Of a DNA stretch of 64,000 nucleotides, positions 48,680-57,318 are shown piece by piece. The stretch is from a virus, in the IMG/VR virus record IMGVR_UViG_3300044846_004348, positions 28,643-92,642 of that record, one strand, 5' to 3'. Positions within the stretch are counted from its first letter, which is position 1. Each line of letters starts with the position of its first letter. The notes beneath the pieces were generated by a model. It ran no database searches, was not told where the DNA came from, and saw nothing but the letters and a program-made list of their open reading frames with translations. The position numbers and the translations under genes are program-made.

Positions 48680-48752
48680 GCCTCGTTGGTCTAGCGGTTA
48701 GGACGTCTCCCTCTCACGGAGAAGATCGTCGGTTCGAATCCGATACGAGGTA
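48680..48752 (+). tRNA. tRNA-Glu(CTC)
   Basis: GCCTCGT/ACGAGGT acceptor, TCTCC-CT CTC AC-GGAGA anticodon arm, GGTTCGAATCC; no encoded CCA. Confidence 0.92.
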
Positions 48753-48755
48753 CAC

Positions 48756-48827
48756 GCCTCCTTAGCTCAGTGGTAGAGCACCCGCCTTGTAAGCGGGCGG
48801 TCATCCGTTCAAATCGGATAGGGGGCT
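48756..48827 (+). tRNA. tRNA-Thr(TGT)
   Basis: TAGCTCAGTGGTAGAGC D arm, CCCGC-CT TGT AA-GCGGG, GTTCAAATC. Confidence 0.93.
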
Positions 48828-48835
48828 CTAGTAAG

Positions 48836-49594
48836 TTAATTTGCTTGGTAGGGCGGCACACAAATGTTATGCCACTCTCTTGCTTGATTAACATTGTCAA
48901 AAAACTCTACATCTTCTATATAAACTGACTCTGCCCAGTCTTTCCATTTAGGTGCGCAATTAACATAATTAAATTTAAATAAACCAAAAGGTGTTCCATA
49001 AGCGTGAGCCGCTATTGCAACATGTAGAGAGCCAGTTAAAACAAATCTTGCTCCAGATATTAATTTAGTGAGGTCAACAATATCTTCCTCGCTAGCTACA
49101 GCAGTAGTGTAGAAAGAATCTGCTCCATGATCTAAGGGGTCGTAGTCCTCTATGTATGGATCTAGTATGTGAGGAATAAAAAGTATTTGGGCATTTAAGT
49201 CTCCCTTTGGAATAAATTTAGGTAAGTTGTATCCAGGGTCAGGACTAACTGGAACTTCAATCCCATAACTTGCTAAAACGTCTTGAGTCTTTGGACCTCT
49301 AACAGATACAAATTTTGATTGTTCTAGGAGGAAAGAATCTAATTCTTCTCCACGCCATCCGCAATTAACAAAAATTGGAGTAAAGCCTGACTCTAATATT
49401 TCAATCATAACTTCATTACAAATAGTGCTACCTAGTACCGAATAGCAATTTTTGTCGTCTTGATAGAAACCCTCTAACTCTTCTTTAGATAGTAAGACAT
49501 CTATTAGAGCATCCCCATAGTTTCTAATAGAATCATGCTTATTTAGAGGGTTGTCTGTAATAGGTTCTTTATCTGGTAGCCACTCATAAATCAT
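48836..49594 (-). CDS. polysaccharide pyruvyltransferase-like protein
   Basis: NYGD, VLGS, SVRGPKT, DPG, IPH, TGSLHVAIAAHAYGTP. Confidence 0.78.
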   Translation of the reverse strand: MIYEWLPDKEPITDNPLNKHDSIRNYGDALIDVLLSKEELEGFYQDDKNCYSVLGSTICNEVMIEILESGFTPIFVNCGWRGEELDSFLLEQSKFVSVRGPKTQDVLASYGIEVPVSPDPGYNLPKFIPKGDLNAQILFIPHILDPYIEDYDPLDHGADSFYTTAVASEEDIVDLTKLISGARFVLTGSLHVAIAAHAYGTPFGLFKFNYVNCAPKWKDWAESVYIEDVEFFDNVNQAREWHNICVPPYQAN

Positions 49595-50148: not shown

Positions 50149-50757
50149 ATGATACAAAATGAAACGACGAAATTGGTTCCAAAATCAAGAGTGGGTAAGC
50201 CAAAGATGAATAATCAGGAGCTACCTCTAGAAGTCATAGAAAAATTACAATCTATAGACAAACGCACTCCTGTGGGCAAAGAGACTAGAAAAGCATATAT
50301 GAAAAAACTGCACTCTCTTAATTGGACTTTAACTGCTATAGCAAGAGGTGCTGGTCTATCTAGAGAAAGAGTTCGTCAACTTATTGAAGAAAATAAAAGT
50401 TATGACTTTTCATTAGTAGAAGACTTTCCTGCACCACGAGTTGATGTATGGGTTGCTAGTGCTAAAAAAGAGATAGTTCTTCCAGACGAAGAAATACTAA
50501 AAAGACTTTTAGAACTAAAAGCTTATGCTGCAAGAGTTAGAAGCCATAGTCCAAGGTATCGTGAAGAAGCCGAGGAATACACAAAACTTATTAACGAGTG
50601 CGTAGAAAACGGTGTAACTCTATACAGACTAAGTAAACTACTTGATGTTACTCATGGCGCATTATTGTTTAGATTAGTTAGATACGGTTATAAAGAAACT
50701 ACTGGAACTTCTAAATCTCTTACAAAAGTATTAGACAAAAACAGAAAGCAAGTTTAA
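50149..50757 (+). CDS. double-HTH DNA-binding protein (sigma region-4-like first HTH)
   Basis: WTLTAIARGAGLSRERVRQL and GVTLYRLSKLLDVTHGALLFRL. Confidence 0.72.
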   Translation: MIQNETTKLVPKSRVGKPKMNNQELPLEVIEKLQSIDKRTPVGKETRKAYMKKLHSLNWTLTAIARGAGLSRERVRQLIEENKSYDFSLVEDFPAPRVDVWVASAKKEIVLPDEEILKRLLELKAYAARVRSHSPRYREEAEEYTKLINECVENGVTLYRLSKLLDVTHGALLFRLVRYGYKETTGTSKSLTKVLDKNRKQV

Positions 50758-51029
50758 AGTCTTTTACCAATCCATTCAGCGATGTTGACGGTCACTGCAT
50801 TTCCTATTTGTTTATAGCGATCTGCAGTTGACTGTCCATCAGTCCAGTTATCTGGAAAACCCTGTAATCTCTCACACTCTACTGGCGTAAGTTTTCTAAC
50901 AAACAATTCATCATCTAAAAGAAGTGGGACATTGTTTCCACCAGTGCCATATCTGGCAGTTATTGTTGGTGCAATGTCTTTATAAACTCTAGGATCTCCA
51001 ACCCTATTACCTTCATAAAGAGTAGACAT
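50754..51029 (-). CDS. stand-alone C5-MTase C-terminal module (TRD-like segment plus motifs IX-X)
   Basis: APTITARYGTGGNNVP, RKLTPVECERLQGFPDNWT, RYKQIGNAVTV; TAATG coupling to the upstream MTase. Confidence 0.8.
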   Translation of the reverse strand: MSTLYEGNRVGDPRVYKDIAPTITARYGTGGNNVPLLLDDELFVRKLTPVECERLQGFPDNWTDGQSTADRYKQIGNAVTVNIAEWIGKRL

Positions 51030-52414
51030 TAAAGTCTTTTACCAATCCATTCAATAACATTTACAGTTACTGCGTTACCCATTTGCTTATATCTATTTGA
51101 GTCCGCTTGACCTGAAGTCCAATCATCTGGAAAACCTTGAAGTCTTTCACATTCGATAGGTGTAAGACGACGAACAGTTGAATTTTTAATTACTGCTGGA
51201 AATCTATTTTTCTCTGGCATTGTTTGTCCTTTTGCAAGAACTGCGTCTAGTGTTTGAGAAGTTTGACCACCGTTCCACCAAGTGCCATCTGTTTGAGCCT
51301 CTGCAACGAAGTCACCTGAATCTGTTCCTGTGCGAAGAGATCTATAAACTTCTTGCTCTAACTTTTGATTGTAAGCATCATAAGAGATTGCAACCCCATG
51401 TGGACCAACAGTGTCTACTGTATACATCGGGCCATCAATTTCTCCATAGCCTTTACCTTGAGGACCTGAAGTATCTGCTCTTCCAATAGTTGTTGATTGA
51501 ATTGCAATTGATTGAGCTCCAGTTGAATCCAAAGTATAAGAAGGTTGTCCAGCAGTTTGTGCAACACCTAAACCATTTTGATTCTTCTGCATCTCTCTAC
51601 CATCTTGAATTGGATAAACATCTGTAAGTAAAACAGTTGCACGAGCCTCGCCACTATTATCAAAAACATTTAATGTTGGAGAAACTAATTGTTCTGCCCA
51701 AACTTCTGGTGGAAGATTACCATTTTCGTCTCTAGCACCAGAGCGAATAGTTTTTATGAAAGTGCTGACTTCTCGATGATCTTCTTCAGAGCGTTCTCCA
51801 GAACTTCTGGTAACGGTTTCCCGCGACCCGTTGCTCGACGAATAATTCCCTCCGCTGCTTTCGCGCTCAGTGAGTACTTCTCGGAAGCGTTTGGTTCCAA
51901 GATTTGCGACAACAAAGACTCTCCTGCGTCGTTGCGGGACTCCGAAGAACTGCGAATTAAGGACACGCCATTCGATGTTGCTATACCCTGCGTCGGCCAA
52001 ACTAGAGAGGACGACTCCGAAATCGCGTCCGTTGTTGCTTGATAAAAGTCCTGGGACATTTTCCAAGATGATAGTTTCTGCTTTGACATGCGTCGCGAAA
52101 GAGAGAGCGTCAAAGAAGAGTCCTGTTCGCTTACCAGCGAGTCCAGCCCGTTTTCCTGCAACGCTAACATCTTGACACGGGAATCCTCCAACGACAAGGT
52201 CGACTTGTCCAACGAGTCCGATTTCATCTGCCCACTCCTTTGCTGTAACAACATCATTATGTTTTGGCACATCTGGCCAATGATTTTCTAAAACTGATAA
52301 ACACTTTTTATCTATTTCAACTTGACCTACGCAAGTGTGACCTGCTCGTTCTAGACCCAAATCAAAGCCACCAACACCTGCAAAGAGGCTTACAAATTTA
52401 ATAGATTTTCCCAT
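51029..52414 (-). CDS. dcm: DNA (cytosine-5) methyltransferase
   Basis: LFAGVGG (I), GFPCQD (IV), ENVPG (VI), QRRRRVF (VIII), RRLTPIECERLQGFPD (IX), MGNAV (X). Confidence 0.95.
   Translation of the reverse strand: MGKSIKFVSLFAGVGGFDLGLERAGHTCVGQVEIDKKCLSVLENHWPDVPKHNDVVTAKEWADEIGLVGQVDLVVGGFPCQDVSVAGKRAGLAGKRTGLFFDALSFATHVKAETIILENVPGLLSSNNGRDFGVVLSSLADAGYSNIEWRVLNSQFFGVPQRRRRVFVVANLGTKRFREVLTERESSGGNYSSSNGSRETVTRSSGERSEEDHREVSTFIKTIRSGARDENGNLPPEVWAEQLVSPTLNVFDNSGEARATVLLTDVYPIQDGREMQKNQNGLGVAQTAGQPSYTLDSTGAQSIAIQSTTIGRADTSGPQGKGYGEIDGPMYTVDTVGPHGVAISYDAYNQKLEQEVYRSLRTGTDSGDFVAEAQTDGTWWNGGQTSQTLDAVLAKGQTMPEKNRFPAVIKNSTVRRLTPIECERLQGFPDDWTSGQADSNRYKQMGNAVTVNVIEWIGKRL
51754..52227 (-). CDS. 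overprinted ORF inside dcm (M.EcoHK31I beta-like polypeptide)
   Basis: +1 frame, AAGGAG-7 nt-ATG, 157 aa; LSQILE...KYSLSAKAAEGIIRRA..RGKPLPEVLENAL; locally raised GC. Confidence 0.72.
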   Translation of the reverse strand: MKSDSLDKSTLSLEDSRVKMLALQENGLDSLVSEQDSSLTLSLSRRMSKQKLSSWKMSQDFYQATTDAISESSSLVWPTQGIATSNGVSLIRSSSESRNDAGESLLSQILEPNASEKYSLSAKAAEGIIRRATGRGKPLPEVLENALKKIIEKSALS

Positions 52415-55257: not shown

Positions 55258-57318
55258 CTATTTTGAGTTATCTGCAATAAGACGGATTTCGCAAGCGTCT
55301 GTAGTGCAGTAAGCCTCACCGATAGCGTCAGAAGCCATTCCAGCATAAACACCAGAGAAGTCGATAGGGAACAACTTCATAGTTGCATCTACATACTCTT
55401 CTTCAGTCATTTGTGTATATGGCATTTGAGGATAAGTAAAGTTTCCTGATGGTAAGAAACTTACAGTTTTTAGTTGTCCGTCATACATATGAAGGACAGT
55501 TCCAACATGCTCTTTCTCTGTTTCAGGATTAAACGAAATAGTTACAGAGACAGAGTTATCTGACCAGTAGCGTTGTGCAGTTGCTGCAAGCGCCATCTTT
55601 TCAAAAATAGTTACATCTTTTTCTGCACGCTCTGCATCTGATTTGATAGGAAAGAAAACAACAGAAGTTGTGTCAGGTGATTCTGAAGCTGGTTCAACTC
55701 TATAGTTTGCCATTTTAAAAAGTGGAAGCATTGCATCAGAGTTAGCAAAACGAATTGCTCTTAAGAAATACTTTCCACCTGGAGTCCAGTGAACTCCTGG
55801 GCTTTCACCTGCAAGAATTGAAACGGTGCCAGAAGGCTTAACGGTTGTAGTTTTGATTGACTCACGAATACCAAGCCACTCTGAATAAGTTGTGTCGTAG
55901 TTCTTAATATTTTTATAACCTTCATCCATCCAATCACGCAAAATTGGTAAACCAACTTTGTCAGCAAAATTTGCAACACCTGACATAGAAGTACCAATAC
56001 GACGATTACGTTGCATGATTGCGTTTGTCTCTTCCCAGTGAGTTGGAAGAAGAGTTACAGTCTTTGCATAAAGATAAGCGAACTTTAGTGTGCGCTTGTA
56101 ATCTTCTAAAGACTCATGACGATTTAGATAAGTTTCAACAAGAGTACACATTTCATATGACTCAAGTGATTGTTCAGCGCAAGGGTTGTAACCTGCAATG
56201 CGATGATCTTTATTATTAATTGGATCTGCAAGACGGCCATACTTTTTAGAGACATCCATCCAAATAACGCCAGGTTCACCATTGCGAGCGATACCATCAA
56301 CAATTTTTGATAAGTCTTGACCAACGCTAACTGCAACTGAGTTATTACTCATCCAACCCCAGCCAGGAGCTTTTGGATCGTAAGAATTACGCTCTGGAAA
56401 AATATCAGCATTTTTTAGATTTAAAAACTCATCGTCATCAATAGAGCCAATAAGAAGTTCAGCACTACGACGTACGTTGCCAGATACAACACAAACACCA
56501 ATTAAGTTTCCAATATCTGCAATATCTCTTTTTGTTAACTTCTCTCCAGCACGATTGTTAAACAAATTATGTATGTAGTTATGTAGTCTTTCTAGAGGTT
56601 CGTGACCTGCAGCAGTTCCACCGAAAGTTGAAATAGGTGCGCCAGCAGGACGGATTAGAGAGTAATCAAACTCTAAGCAATTCTGTTCAGGCTTTAAATA
56701 AGAATTAACAAGCATGGTTAGAGAGTCAACCCAACCCTCGCGAGTGTCAGGAATTTCAAACTTTACGCACTCTTCAGATTTTGGTTTGTAAATTGTAAAA
56801 TCTTTTTCAGCACCTTTATCATCAAAGCCAACACCAACGCCAAGCATTGATGCTTCCATTAAAAATCCAAAAGGTTTTGCTGGATCGTTCTTTGTCATTT
56901 CTAAAGTAGAAACAAAAGCACAGTTTTGTAGTGCTGCTGAGTTTCTTTGCTCATTAACAATTGGAGTTCCCATAACCCAAAGTCCACGTCCTGGTGGAGT
57001 CCACTTCAAATTGAATAAACGATCAAATGCTTCTTTAGCAGATGCTTGACCGCGAGTATCGTTCCAAGGTAAACGGTTAGTTTTGCAATGATCTTTTTGT
57101 AATGAATACATGCCATTAATAACACGCTCACAAACATCAACCCAAGTCTCTTTAGTTCCATCCTCTTTAAGTCGAGAGTAAGTACGAAGAAAAGTAATCT
57201 CTCCAACAGAGTTATCAGCAGCGTCTCTATAACCAAAAGGTGATTTTTTACTTCTGTATCCTGATACAAAGTCCTCTGACAACTTAAAAGACAATACTAA
57301 TGACAATTTCTTCTCCAT
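55258..57318 (-). CDS. nrdJ: class II (B12-dependent) ribonucleoside-triphosphate reductase
   Basis: PPGRGLW, LQNCAF, GNVRRSAE, NPCAEQ (thiyl Cys), VKPSGTVS, C-terminal CTTDAC. Confidence 0.93.
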   Translation of the reverse strand: MEKKLSLVLSFKLSEDFVSGYRSKKSPFGYRDAADNSVGEITFLRTYSRLKEDGTKETWVDVCERVINGMYSLQKDHCKTNRLPWNDTRGQASAKEAFDRLFNLKWTPPGRGLWVMGTPIVNEQRNSAALQNCAFVSTLEMTKNDPAKPFGFLMEASMLGVGVGFDDKGAEKDFTIYKPKSEECVKFEIPDTREGWVDSLTMLVNSYLKPEQNCLEFDYSLIRPAGAPISTFGGTAAGHEPLERLHNYIHNLFNNRAGEKLTKRDIADIGNLIGVCVVSGNVRRSAELLIGSIDDDEFLNLKNADIFPERNSYDPKAPGWGWMSNNSVAVSVGQDLSKIVDGIARNGEPGVIWMDVSKKYGRLADPINNKDHRIAGYNPCAEQSLESYEMCTLVETYLNRHESLEDYKRTLKFAYLYAKTVTLLPTHWEETNAIMQRNRRIGTSMSGVANFADKVGLPILRDWMDEGYKNIKNYDTTYSEWLGIRESIKTTTVKPSGTVSILAGESPGVHWTPGGKYFLRAIRFANSDAMLPLFKMANYRVEPASESPDTTSVVFFPIKSDAERAEKDVTIFEKMALAATAQRYWSDNSVSVTISFNPETEKEHVGTVLHMYDGQLKTVSFLPSGNFTYPQMPYTQMTEEEYVDATMKLFPIDFSGVYAGMASDAIGEAYCTTDACEIRLIADNSK

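What the first reader, a model, noticed from the sequence alone, without database searches (positions are those of the whole stretch)
51754..52227. Overprinted second gene inside the DNA cytosine methyltransferase, with its own ribosome-binding site
Seen: a 157-aa ORF in the +1 frame of dcm starts at ATG 52227, 7 nt after AAGGAG. The overlapped segment is visibly more GC/CpG-rich than the rest of the gene. The main frame becomes low-complexity (SSGGNYSSSNGSRETVTRSS) exactly where the overprinted frame looks most protein-like. Knowledge: M.EcoHK31I needs a beta polypeptide encoded in an alternative frame inside the alpha gene. From memory, beta resembles KMSQDFYQATTD.ISESSS..WP..G...LSQILE...L......IIRRA..RG..LPE.L. 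Unlike that case, this ORF stops before any motif IX and the main ORF keeps IX-X, so its role is unexplained (structural subunit or regulator).
Basis: partly seen in the sequence, partly recalled or inferred. Interest (0 to 1): 0.78.

Follow-up and report, generated by a model that had tools for sequence, protein, structure and literature searches.

The report
Nested gene inside phage cytosine methyltransferase
A phage DNA cytosine methyltransferase gene holds a second, real protein-coding gene in its +1 reading frame; that gene most likely makes a missing middle piece of the same enzyme, and the same hidden gene is present in thousands of phage methyltransferases, including that of phage P1.

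Summary
A 157-codon ORF (51754-52227, minus strand) lies in the +1 frame of the 461-aa C5-methyltransferase gene. It starts at an ATG 7 nt after AAGGAG. The overlapped DNA has GC 0.50 and CpG o/e 1.37, against 0.39 and 0.3-0.5 in the flanks.

It is a real gene. The +1 frame is open in 80 of 80 viral relatives, where chance gives P about 0.002-0.02 per lineage. After motif VIII the selection signature flips: pN/pS is 0.37 in the +1 frame and 1.57 in the main frame. Start codon and Shine-Dalgarno sequence are conserved.

Only the last ~55 residues fold in the model, as a helical hairpin. In related phages the same module is fused in frame to the target-recognition domain (TRD) and motifs IX-X. 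It therefore looks like the enzyme segment between motif VIII and the TRD, where the main frame has only an unselected linker. The best reading is a separately translated structural subunit. This is inferred, not shown.

The layout matches M.EcoHK31I (beta nested in alpha), but the piece is not motif IX. A 2015 mycobacteriophage paper noticed a similar overlap and left it unresolved. This scan has flagged the same two-frame methyltransferase family on many other genomes.

Verdict: a new variant of a known kind.

The parts
51029..52414 (-). Main ORF: C5-cytosine DNA methyltransferase, 461 aa (P0002), motifs I-VIII, linker, TRD, IX-X in one frame
   Evidence: PF00145 E 4.3e-70 over residues 5-460; TIGR00675; phrog_116
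51754..52227 (-). Nested +1-frame gene, 157 aa (P0001), stop codon included
   Evidence: The +1 frame is open in 80/80 relatives. Openness is far beyond chance. 74 called homologues. phrog_16143 E 2.5e-9.
52235..52240 (-). Shine-Dalgarno AAGGAG, 7 nt upstream of the nested start ATG 52227-52225
   Evidence: A start codon occupies the same narrow window (-65 to -32 nt from the motif-IV Pro codon) in all 40 representatives, mostly with AAGGA(G). In the gut-phage clade the start is ATG in 50/52 and an SD of 4 nt or more is present in 49/52, against 25% of control triplets.
51940..51999 (-). Doubly selected stretch: main-frame motifs VII-VIII and nested residues W77..G81..E96
   Evidence: Third positions of the four-fold Gly codons G143 (GGG) and G158 (GGA) are invariant in 40 diverged sequences. 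They encode nested G81 and E96. W77, G81 and E96 are invariant or nearly so in A1.
51757..51945 (-). Conserved C-terminal module of the nested protein (residues 95-157: SE.P..SLLSQILE..KYSLSAKAAEGIIRRATGRGKPLPEVLENAL..)
   Evidence: pN/pS is 0.365 in the +1 frame and 1.57 in the main frame. Codon-position entropy flips. AF2 pLDDT is 90-98, with helices 105-109, 122-135 and 141-156. The module profile hits 4526 protein clusters.
51764..51904 (-). Main-frame linker (residues 171-217), low-complexity, not under main-frame selection; it is the out-of-frame 'shadow' of the module
   Evidence: Main-frame pN/pS is 1.57. In some relatives the main ORF stops inside this stretch (L005).
51032..51763 (-). 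Main-frame C-terminal part: TRD and motifs IX-X. It begins (FIKTIRSGAR...) exactly where the nested ORF stops
   Evidence: The separate C-subunit ORFs of split relatives begin at the homologous WF(I/V)KT.R.
50754..51029 (-). Downstream 91-aa ORF (P0003) with its own short TRD loop and motifs IX-X, overlapping the dcm stop as TAATG; probably an alternative C-terminal subunit
   Evidence: PF00145 positions 275-321, E 1.3e-14; phrog_16528. Relatives carry up to 5 such tandem ORFs.

Best explanation
The +1-frame ORF is a real, separately translated gene nested in the methyltransferase gene. Ribosomes start at ATG 52227 behind AAGGAG and read about 100 codons of weakly constrained, probably disordered leader. 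This leader is the out-of-frame shadow of motifs IV-VIII. They then read a strongly conserved helical module of about 55 residues. The module is the enzyme segment that normally lies between motif VIII and the target-recognition domain (TRD). In this clade the main frame reads the same nucleotides as an unselected spacer. The active enzyme is therefore most likely a hetero-oligomer: the 461-aa chain (or its catalytic half together with the 91-aa IX-X chain) plus the nested protein. Shown here: the ORF is kept open, is under purifying selection as protein, has a conserved start and SD, and its module is covalently part of the TRD/IX-X chain in related phages. Inferred: that the protein is made, that it binds the enzyme, and that activity needs it.
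For: (1) The +1 ORF across motif VIII is open for 153-195 codons in 80/80 viral loci at 36-85% identity; the +2 frame is mostly open for only 11-30 codons.
(2) Simulations give P(open) of 0.002-0.023 per lineage.
(3) Codon-position entropy and pN/pS flip after motif VIII. In the module region pN/pS is 0.365 in the +1 frame and 1.57 in the main frame. Elsewhere the main frame scores 0.32-0.41 and the +1 frame 1.0-1.3.
(4) Invariant synonymous sites at G143 and G158 show +1-frame selection at least 30 codons upstream of the end of motif VIII.
(5) Start codon and SD are conserved in two distant clades.
(6) The same nested ORF occurs in phage P1 dmt, mycobacteriophage Omega gp127 and Streptococcus Javan phages. 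In the four records whose frame I checked (P1, Omega, two gut phages) it is always +1.
(7) The module profile finds 4526 clusters at E <= 1e-3. In eight long hits the module is followed in the same frame by the PF00145 C-terminal part with motifs IX-X.
(8) Of 52 gut-phage loci, all carry the module in the +1 ORF. In 16 the +1 ORF runs on into IX-X; in 31 it stops after the module, as it does here.
(9) hhalign places the module on E. coli Dcm residues 307-337, just after motif VIII, with P = 0.0089. The Pfam match of P0340 runs from the module at HMM position 184.
(10) AF2 models the module with pLDDT 90-98.
Against: No protein-level evidence exists: no Ribo-seq, proteomics or activity data. 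Binding to the enzyme could not be tested. The similarity to the in-frame Dcm segment is weak (P about 0.01, one family tested). The main chain already has all ten canonical motifs, so it might work alone. The first ~100 residues of the nested protein show little selection of their own (pN/pS about 1.0), so it is unexplained why the start lies so far upstream.
Confidence: 0.6

Rival explanations
1. Programmed +1 ribosomal frameshift. Ribosomes translating dcm slip after motif VIII (QRRRRVF, AGG AGA GUC UUU G) into the +1 frame and make one chain, motifs I-VIII plus module. No independent nested protein exists.
For: A frameshifted chain would put the module directly after motif VIII, close to the canonical order, and in the 16 type-A loci would give a complete single-chain enzyme. 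Rare AGG AGA codons and an SD-like AGGAG sit at the site. The 2015 Cluster O paper lists a frameshift among the open possibilities (PMC4351075).
Against: It does not explain why the +1 frame is kept open for 90-125 codons upstream of motif VIII in all 80 + 52 loci. It does not explain the conserved ATG with SD at a fixed upstream place. It does not explain +1-frame selection on W77, G81 and E96, which lie upstream of the end of motif VIII. In this window the product would end after the module and lack TRD and IX-X.
Confidence: 0.12
2. The nested protein is real but is not an enzyme part. Its small basic helical module (RRA.RRGK) acts as a regulator, for example a controller-type DNA- or RNA-binding protein or a modulator of methyltransferase activity or timing.
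For: The fold is a small basic helical hairpin with a disordered N-terminus. The main chain already has motifs I-X. Nesting gives tight co-expression.
Against: In 16 of 52 gut-phage loci and in eight long database proteins the module is part of the same polypeptide as TRD + IX-X. That fits a structural segment better than a free regulator. No helix-turn-helix or other family match was found.
Confidence: 0.13
3. The ORF is a by-product: a chance open frame or the decaying relic of a former two-frame gene, with no function now.
For: Out-of-frame 'shadows' of strongly conserved motifs look conserved in any case. The leader part of the ORF shows pN/pS near 1.
Against: Openness is far beyond the codon-shuffle expectation. 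Purifying selection is specific to the +1 frame in the module, at 0.365, equal to that of the main frame elsewhere. Four-fold sites are invariant. The module persists from marine phages to P1, Omega and Streptococcus phages and in 4526 clusters.
Confidence: 0.04

Closest known systems
M.EcoHK31I (E. coli HK31, YGGCCR), alpha/beta C5-methyltransferase
   Same: The second polypeptide is encoded entirely inside the gene of the first, in another reading frame, and both belong to one C5-methyltransferase. The N-terminal part of the small chain matters less than its C-terminal part (PMC2836561; PMC3404938).
   Different: EcoHK31I beta carries motif IX and alpha lacks it. Here motif IX is in the main frame and the nested protein carries the segment between motif VIII and the TRD. 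EcoHK31I needs both chains by experiment; nothing is tested here. No EcoHK31I sequence was on hand, so homology is untested.
M.AquI (alpha: motifs I-VIII + part of the variable region; beta: rest of the variable region + IX-X)
   Same: It is a naturally split C5-methyltransferase cut in the variable region (PMC3404938). About 35 of 39 marine relatives of this gene are split in the same region into an N ORF and one or more C ORFs.
   Different: In this window the N and C parts are fused in one 461-aa chain. A third piece is made from the +1 frame over some 470 nt of overlap, which is not described for M.AquI in the texts I could read.
Mycobacteriophage Corndog gp7/gp6 (Cluster O) and 'similar arrangements' noted in 2015
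   Same: The authors saw two methylase gene segments, with the best ribosome-binding site of the second inside the first ORF and coding potential in the overlap. They left open whether there are two subunits, a frameshift, a hop or an intron (PMC4351075). This is the 'type A' layout that I found in 16 of 52 gut-phage loci.
   Different: There the second frame runs on to the C-terminal helices of the enzyme. Here it stops after the module and the main frame resumes (frame pattern 0/+1/0). The paper gives no selection analysis and no breadth.
Phage P1 Dmt and mycobacteriophage Omega gp127/gp128
   Same: They belong to the same methyltransferase clade and have the same nested +1 ORF ending in the same module: P1 L081:2219-2707, 162 aa; Omega L082:1845-2318, 157 aa.
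   Different: The nested ORF is not annotated in either record. P1 Dmt carries an added Dam domain. Omega is split into gp127 and gp128.
E. coli Dcm (canonical single-chain enzyme)
   Same: Dcm has, in frame and just after motif VIII, a segment (residues 307-337, [31 protein letters not shown]) that aligns with the nested module (hhalign P 0.054 and 0.0089).
   Different: In Dcm the segment is part of the one chain. The similarity is weak and rests on one family.

Membership tests
C5-cytosine DNA methyltransferase (Pfam PF00145), main ORF | Full-length match with motifs I (FAGVGG), IV (PCQ), VI (ENV), VIII (QRRRR), IX (RRLTPIECERLQGFP) and X (GNAV) | tested here: met
   PF00145 E 4.3e-70, residues 5-460 on HMM positions 1-321; motifs read
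M.EcoHK31I-type nested alpha/beta methyltransferase | The small chain is encoded wholly inside the large chain's gene in another frame | tested here: met
   51754-52227 lies inside 51029-52414 in the +1 frame
M.EcoHK31I-type nested alpha/beta methyltransferase | The small chain carries motif IX and the large chain lacks it | tested here: not met
   Motif IX is in the main frame. The nested protein has no PF00145 match at E <= 0.1.
M.EcoHK31I-type nested alpha/beta methyltransferase | Both chains are required for methylation | not testable with these tools
   Needs an activity assay
M.EcoHK31I-type nested alpha/beta methyltransferase | Sequence similarity of the nested protein to EcoHK31I beta | not tested
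   No EcoHK31I sequence could be obtained by reference; the original paper (PMC306636) is not held
M.AquI-type split methyltransferase | Motifs I-VIII and motifs IX-X lie on separate polypeptides | tested here: not met
   The window's main ORF is continuous. About 35 of 39 relatives are split, and the extra 91-aa IX-X ORF exists here.
Phage two-frame C5-methyltransferase clade (P1 Dmt, Omega gp127, Corndog gp6/7-like) | A long +1 ORF spans motif VIII and ends in, or passes through, the module SLS..LE...KY.LS.KA..GI.RRA..RGK.LP..L..AL | tested here: met
Phage two-frame C5-methyltransferase clade (P1 Dmt, Omega gp127, Corndog gp6/7-like) | Purifying selection acts on the +1 frame in the module and is relaxed in the main frame there | tested here: met
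   pN/pS 0.365 against 1.57; entropy flip
Phage two-frame C5-methyltransferase clade (P1 Dmt, Omega gp127, Corndog gp6/7-like) | The +1 product is translated and assembles with the enzyme | not testable with these tools
PHROG phrog_16143 ('DNA methyltransferase', 139-position profile) | Profile match of the nested protein | tested here: met
   E 2.5e-9, residues 2-124. The family appears to consist of such out-of-frame ORFs as called in phage genomes.

The most novel reading that the evidence does not exclude
The nested protein is a shared adaptor of a modular, multi-chain methyltransferase. One catalytic chain (motifs I-VIII) and one adaptor (the segment between motif VIII and the TRD, from the +1 frame) would combine with several interchangeable TRD + IX-X chains. 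Here those are the fused C-part and the 91-aa ORF; relatives have up to five tandem ORFs. One phage enzyme core could then methylate several different motifs. The frame in which the TRD/IX-X part continues (main, +1 or a separate ORF) would be an evolutionary switch between fused and detached forms.
Probability: 0.3. Interest if true: 0.8.

Novelty: new variant of a known kind. Interest (0 to 1): 0.66.

Why it matters
C5-methyltransferases are textbook single-chain enzymes. Reviews list only two heteromeric exceptions, M.AquI and M.EcoHK31I (PMC3404938).

If the nested protein is a needed subunit, a very large phage clade (4526 clusters at 50% identity for the module alone) works as multi-chain enzymes. 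One chain would be hidden in a ~470-nt same-strand overlap that annotation pipelines discard. This includes phage P1 Dmt and many prophage methyltransferases.

That would change how phage anti-restriction methylation is annotated, cloned and assayed, because expressing the annotated ORF with recoded codons would silently destroy the second gene.

It also gives one of the clearest bacterial-virus cases of long dual coding, with a clean hand-over of selection from one frame to the other.

Tried and rejected
Family searches: the nested protein gave nothing in Pfam (only TPR_CcmH_CycH, E 0.02, below cut-off) or NCBIfam.

Structure and fold searches:
- A profile search of PDB sequences gave only chance rows, E >= 0.69.
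- Foldseek against PDB gave no row with E <= 0.001.
- VIA-align wide gave a best Z of 5.1 on generic helical hairpins, so no fold assignment follows.
- The ESM Atlas returned only unnamed clusters of the same family.
- AF2 of a long relative (P0276, module + TRD + IX-X) gave pTM 0.28, with only the module confident. Packing of the module against the TRD could not be read, and I did not search with that model.

Searches for the module elsewhere:
- A word-indexed search for the module in longer proteins found none. The later full HMM search did find them, so one search was a sensitivity failure.
- A genome-contig scan with P0063 confirmed nothing.

- The original EcoHK31I and AquI papers are not held.

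Readings considered and rejected:
- A chance ORF.
- A pure nucleotide-level element. The three-base periodicity of variation follows +1 codons, and in 16 related loci the same frame runs on into motifs IX-X.
- A sequencing frameshift in the window. The same 0/+1/0 layout recurs in 31 independent gut-phage loci.

Full report
WHAT IS THERE

On the minus strand, 51029-52414 encodes a 461-aa C5-cytosine DNA methyltransferase (PF00145 E 4e-70). It has motifs I, IV (PCQ), VI (ENV) and VIII (QRRRR), then a long variable region, then motifs IX and X. In its +1 frame lies an ORF that is open from 52272. Its ATG at 52227 sits 7 nt after AAGGAG and gives 157 aa (P0001), stopping at 51754. The overlapped DNA has GC 0.504 and CpG o/e 1.37. 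The two flanking parts of the gene have GC 0.39 and CpG o/e 0.32 and 0.50. Main-frame GC3 is 0.46 inside the overlap and 0.16-0.21 outside.

IS IT MORE THAN CHANCE?

I fetched 80 viral loci encoding relatives of the methyltransferase at 36-85% identity.
- In all 80, the +1 frame across motif VIII is open for 153-195 codons, while the +2 frame is mostly open for 11-30.
- I kept each main-frame protein fixed and shuffled synonymous codons within the region. This gave a mean of 3.0 +1-frame stops and P(open) = 0.023 on average (0.062 for the window).
- Drawing codons from the non-overlapped part of each gene gave 8.0 stops and P(open) = 0.002; for the window it gave 7.2 stops and 0 of 500 draws open.

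WHICH FRAME IS SELECTED?

I used 40 representatives below 90% identity.
- Main residues 10-170 show the usual pattern of variation (third position > first > second).
- In residues 171-210 the pattern flips. Main position 1 has entropy 1.4-1.5 bits and main position 3 about 0.55. This is exactly the pattern of a gene in the +1 frame.
- Pairwise pN/pS says the same. In the module region it is 0.365 in the +1 frame and 1.57 in the main frame. In the other three regions the main frame scores 0.32-0.41 and the +1 frame 0.97-1.29.
- The main frame here is therefore an unselected spacer. In some relatives (L005 and others) the main ORF even stops inside it.
- Upstream of the flip, the third positions of the four-fold Gly codons G143 (always GGG) and G158 (always GGA) are invariant. 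These bases encode the nearly invariant G81 and the invariant E96 of the nested protein. Both frames are thus selected over motifs VII-VIII.

HOW IS IT TRANSLATED?

All 40 representatives have a start codon in a narrow window 32-65 nt before the motif-IV proline codon. It is mostly ATG behind AAGGA(G); in one lineage it is GTG behind GGGGG or GGAGG. In a second, distant set of 52 non-redundant gut-phage loci the first start of the +1 ORF is ATG in 50. It lies about 88 codons before motif VIII. It has an SD of 4 nt or more in 49 of the 52, against 25% of control out-of-frame start triplets.

A +1 frameshift after motif VIII (AGG AGA GUC UUU G) was my main rival. It does not explain the long open upstream frame, the conserved start and SD, or the +1-frame selection upstream of the end of motif VIII. 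I therefore give it about 0.12.

WHAT IS THE PROTEIN?

It has no Pfam or NCBIfam family. PHROGs has a family, phrog_16143, that matches it at E 2.5e-9. With a 45-sequence alignment, AF2 leaves residues 1-100 unmodelled (pLDDT below 52). It models residues 105-157 at pLDDT 90-98 as a short helix plus a helical hairpin. No solved fold or sequence matches meaningfully.

A profile of the module alone finds 4526 protein clusters (50% identity) at E <= 1e-3 among 1.84 billion representatives. Most are 100-230-aa ORFs ending in the module. Eight long hits (P0228, P0256, P0264, P0276, P0307, P0337, P0257, P0340) have leader + module followed in the same frame by a TRD and motifs IX-X. This was confirmed by PF00145 C-terminal matches. 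In P0340 the Pfam match starts within the module, at HMM position 184.

The DNA of such loci shows how this arises.
- In 16 of 52 gut-phage loci the catalytic ORF stops soon after motif VIII, and the +1 ORF runs on through module, TRD and IX-X.
- In 31 of 52, as in this window, the +1 ORF stops right after the module, and the main frame carries TRD and IX-X.
- In most marine relatives the enzyme is in three or more ORFs: the N part, the nested ORF, and one to five TRD/IX-X ORFs.
- The module was in the +1 frame relative to motif VIII in every locus examined. Only the frame of what follows it varies.
- In this window the nested stop lies exactly where the conserved C-part begins (FIKTIRSGAR; the separate C ORFs of relatives start at the homologous WF(I/V)KT.R).

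Position and weak profile similarity both say that the module corresponds to the segment found in frame in canonical enzymes between motif VIII and the TRD. hhalign puts it on E. coli Dcm 307-337 ([31 protein letters not shown]), with P = 0.054 against the single sequence and 0.0089 against a Dcm family profile. I treat this as a lead that agrees with the gene-order evidence, not as proof of homology.

MOST LIKELY MECHANISM

The enzyme is assembled from the main chain and a separately made nested protein. The nested protein supplies the segment between motif VIII and the TRD, where the main chain has only a spacer.
- Shown: the gene is real by evolutionary criteria, has conserved translation signals, and is the same module that is covalently part of the TRD/IX-X chain in related phages.
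- Inferred: translation, binding, and requirement for activity.
- Confidence is about 0.9 that it is a real selected coding gene and about 0.6 for the whole subunit statement.

BREADTH

tblastn finds the nested frame in 196 of 50,697 phage records. Examples:
- Phage P1 dmt: nested ORF of 162 aa, L081:2219-2707, unannotated.
- Mycobacteriophage Omega gp127: 157 aa, L082:1845-2318.
- Streptococcus Javan prophages: here the +1 ORF ends earlier, after KYYLSAEKAVAILSNL.
- Vibrio and gut Oscillospirales or Ruminococcus phages.
In the four records where I checked the frame (P1, Omega, and the Oscillospirales and Ruminococcus phages) the module lies +1 relative to the annotated PF00145 gene.

COMPARISON WITH WHAT IS KNOWN

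- M.EcoHK31I is the one characterised enzyme with a beta chain nested in another frame of the alpha gene. Its beta carries motif IX (PMC2836561; PMC3404938). That feature was tested here and is not met, so this gene works like EcoHK31I in layout but is not shown to be a member.
- M.AquI is split in the variable region. The window's main chain is not split, though most relatives are.
- Cresawn et al. 2015 (PMC4351075) noticed for Corndog gp6/gp7 that the second methylase segment seems to start inside the first ORF, with coding potential in the overlap. They left open whether this means subunits, a frameshift, a hop or an intron, and remarked that similar arrangements exist in other phages.
- This scan has already flagged the two-frame methyltransferase family on many other genomes, including the nested ORF in P1. 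My results agree with those notes. I differ from the wording that the second chain supplies motif IX: in this window it does not.

NOVELTY AND SCORE

This is a new variant of a known kind. The principle (a nested second chain) is in print for one enzyme, and the overlap has been noticed but left unresolved in mycobacteriophages. Three things are new relative to the papers I could search:
- the 0/+1/0 layout, in which only the pre-TRD segment is made from the nested frame;
- the clean selection hand-over between frames;
- the size of the family.
I score interest at 0.66.

Noticed in passing
window 50754-51029 (-): A 91-aa ORF overlaps the dcm stop (TAATG). It has a short TRD loop (APTITARYGTGGNN) and its own motifs IX-X. 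It is probably an alternative C-terminal subunit. Relatives carry up to five such tandem ORFs (L012: 5; L001: 4-5).
   Followed up: partly
L081:2219-2707 (phage P1 NC_005856 66630-67118, inside dmt): The fully annotated P1 genome has an unannotated 162-aa +1 ORF inside dmt ending in the same module. In P1 Dmt the C5 domain is N-terminal (residues 8 to about 480) and the Dam domain C-terminal (residues 493-725).
   Followed up: partly
L084 and L085 (mycobacteriophages Schatzie and Thibault): The cluster J methylase gene is interrupted by an HNH endonuclease gene; Schatzie's record notes 'unable to determine intron boundaries'. Thibault gp104 (81 aa, 'hypothetical protein') is annotated in the frame of the nested module.
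   Followed up: no
L089:1323-2913 and L095:1299-2831: The gut-phage relatives are circularly permuted. Motifs I-II (GSLFDGIGGF ... ASEIE) follow motif X at the C-terminal end, and the ORF that bears motifs IV-VIII starts at motif III.
   Followed up: no
proteins P0075, P0204, P0274, P0304 (metagenome gene calls): These predicted proteins begin with main-frame motifs I-IV (P0075: I-VI) and then continue in the +1 frame into the module. They may come from sequencing indels or gene-caller joins, or be natural frame-switched variants; the contigs could not be fetched.
   Followed up: no
protein P0254 (304 aa): An HNH endonuclease domain (PF01844) is fused upstream of a nested-ORF-like leader and module. 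This may be the product of an HNH insertion in a methyltransferase gene, as in cluster J phages.
   Followed up: no
window 48700-48860 and 55285-56000: The first stretch shows tRNA-like similarity (tRNA-Thr, Ala and Leu of cyanophages and mycobacteriophages). The second is a ribonucleoside-triphosphate reductase gene, 70% identical at the DNA level to that of an actinobacterial phage. No close phage relative of the window was found, so it looks like an uncultured aquatic phage.
   Followed up: no
L088:1066-1557 (Streptococcus phage Javan124): In Streptococcus prophage methyltransferases (single chain, 418 aa) the +1 ORF is open for 163 codons but ends in the middle of the module (…KYYLSAEKAVAILSNL). 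It lacks the RRA..RGK.LP helix. This is either a shortened variant or a decaying copy.
   Followed up: no
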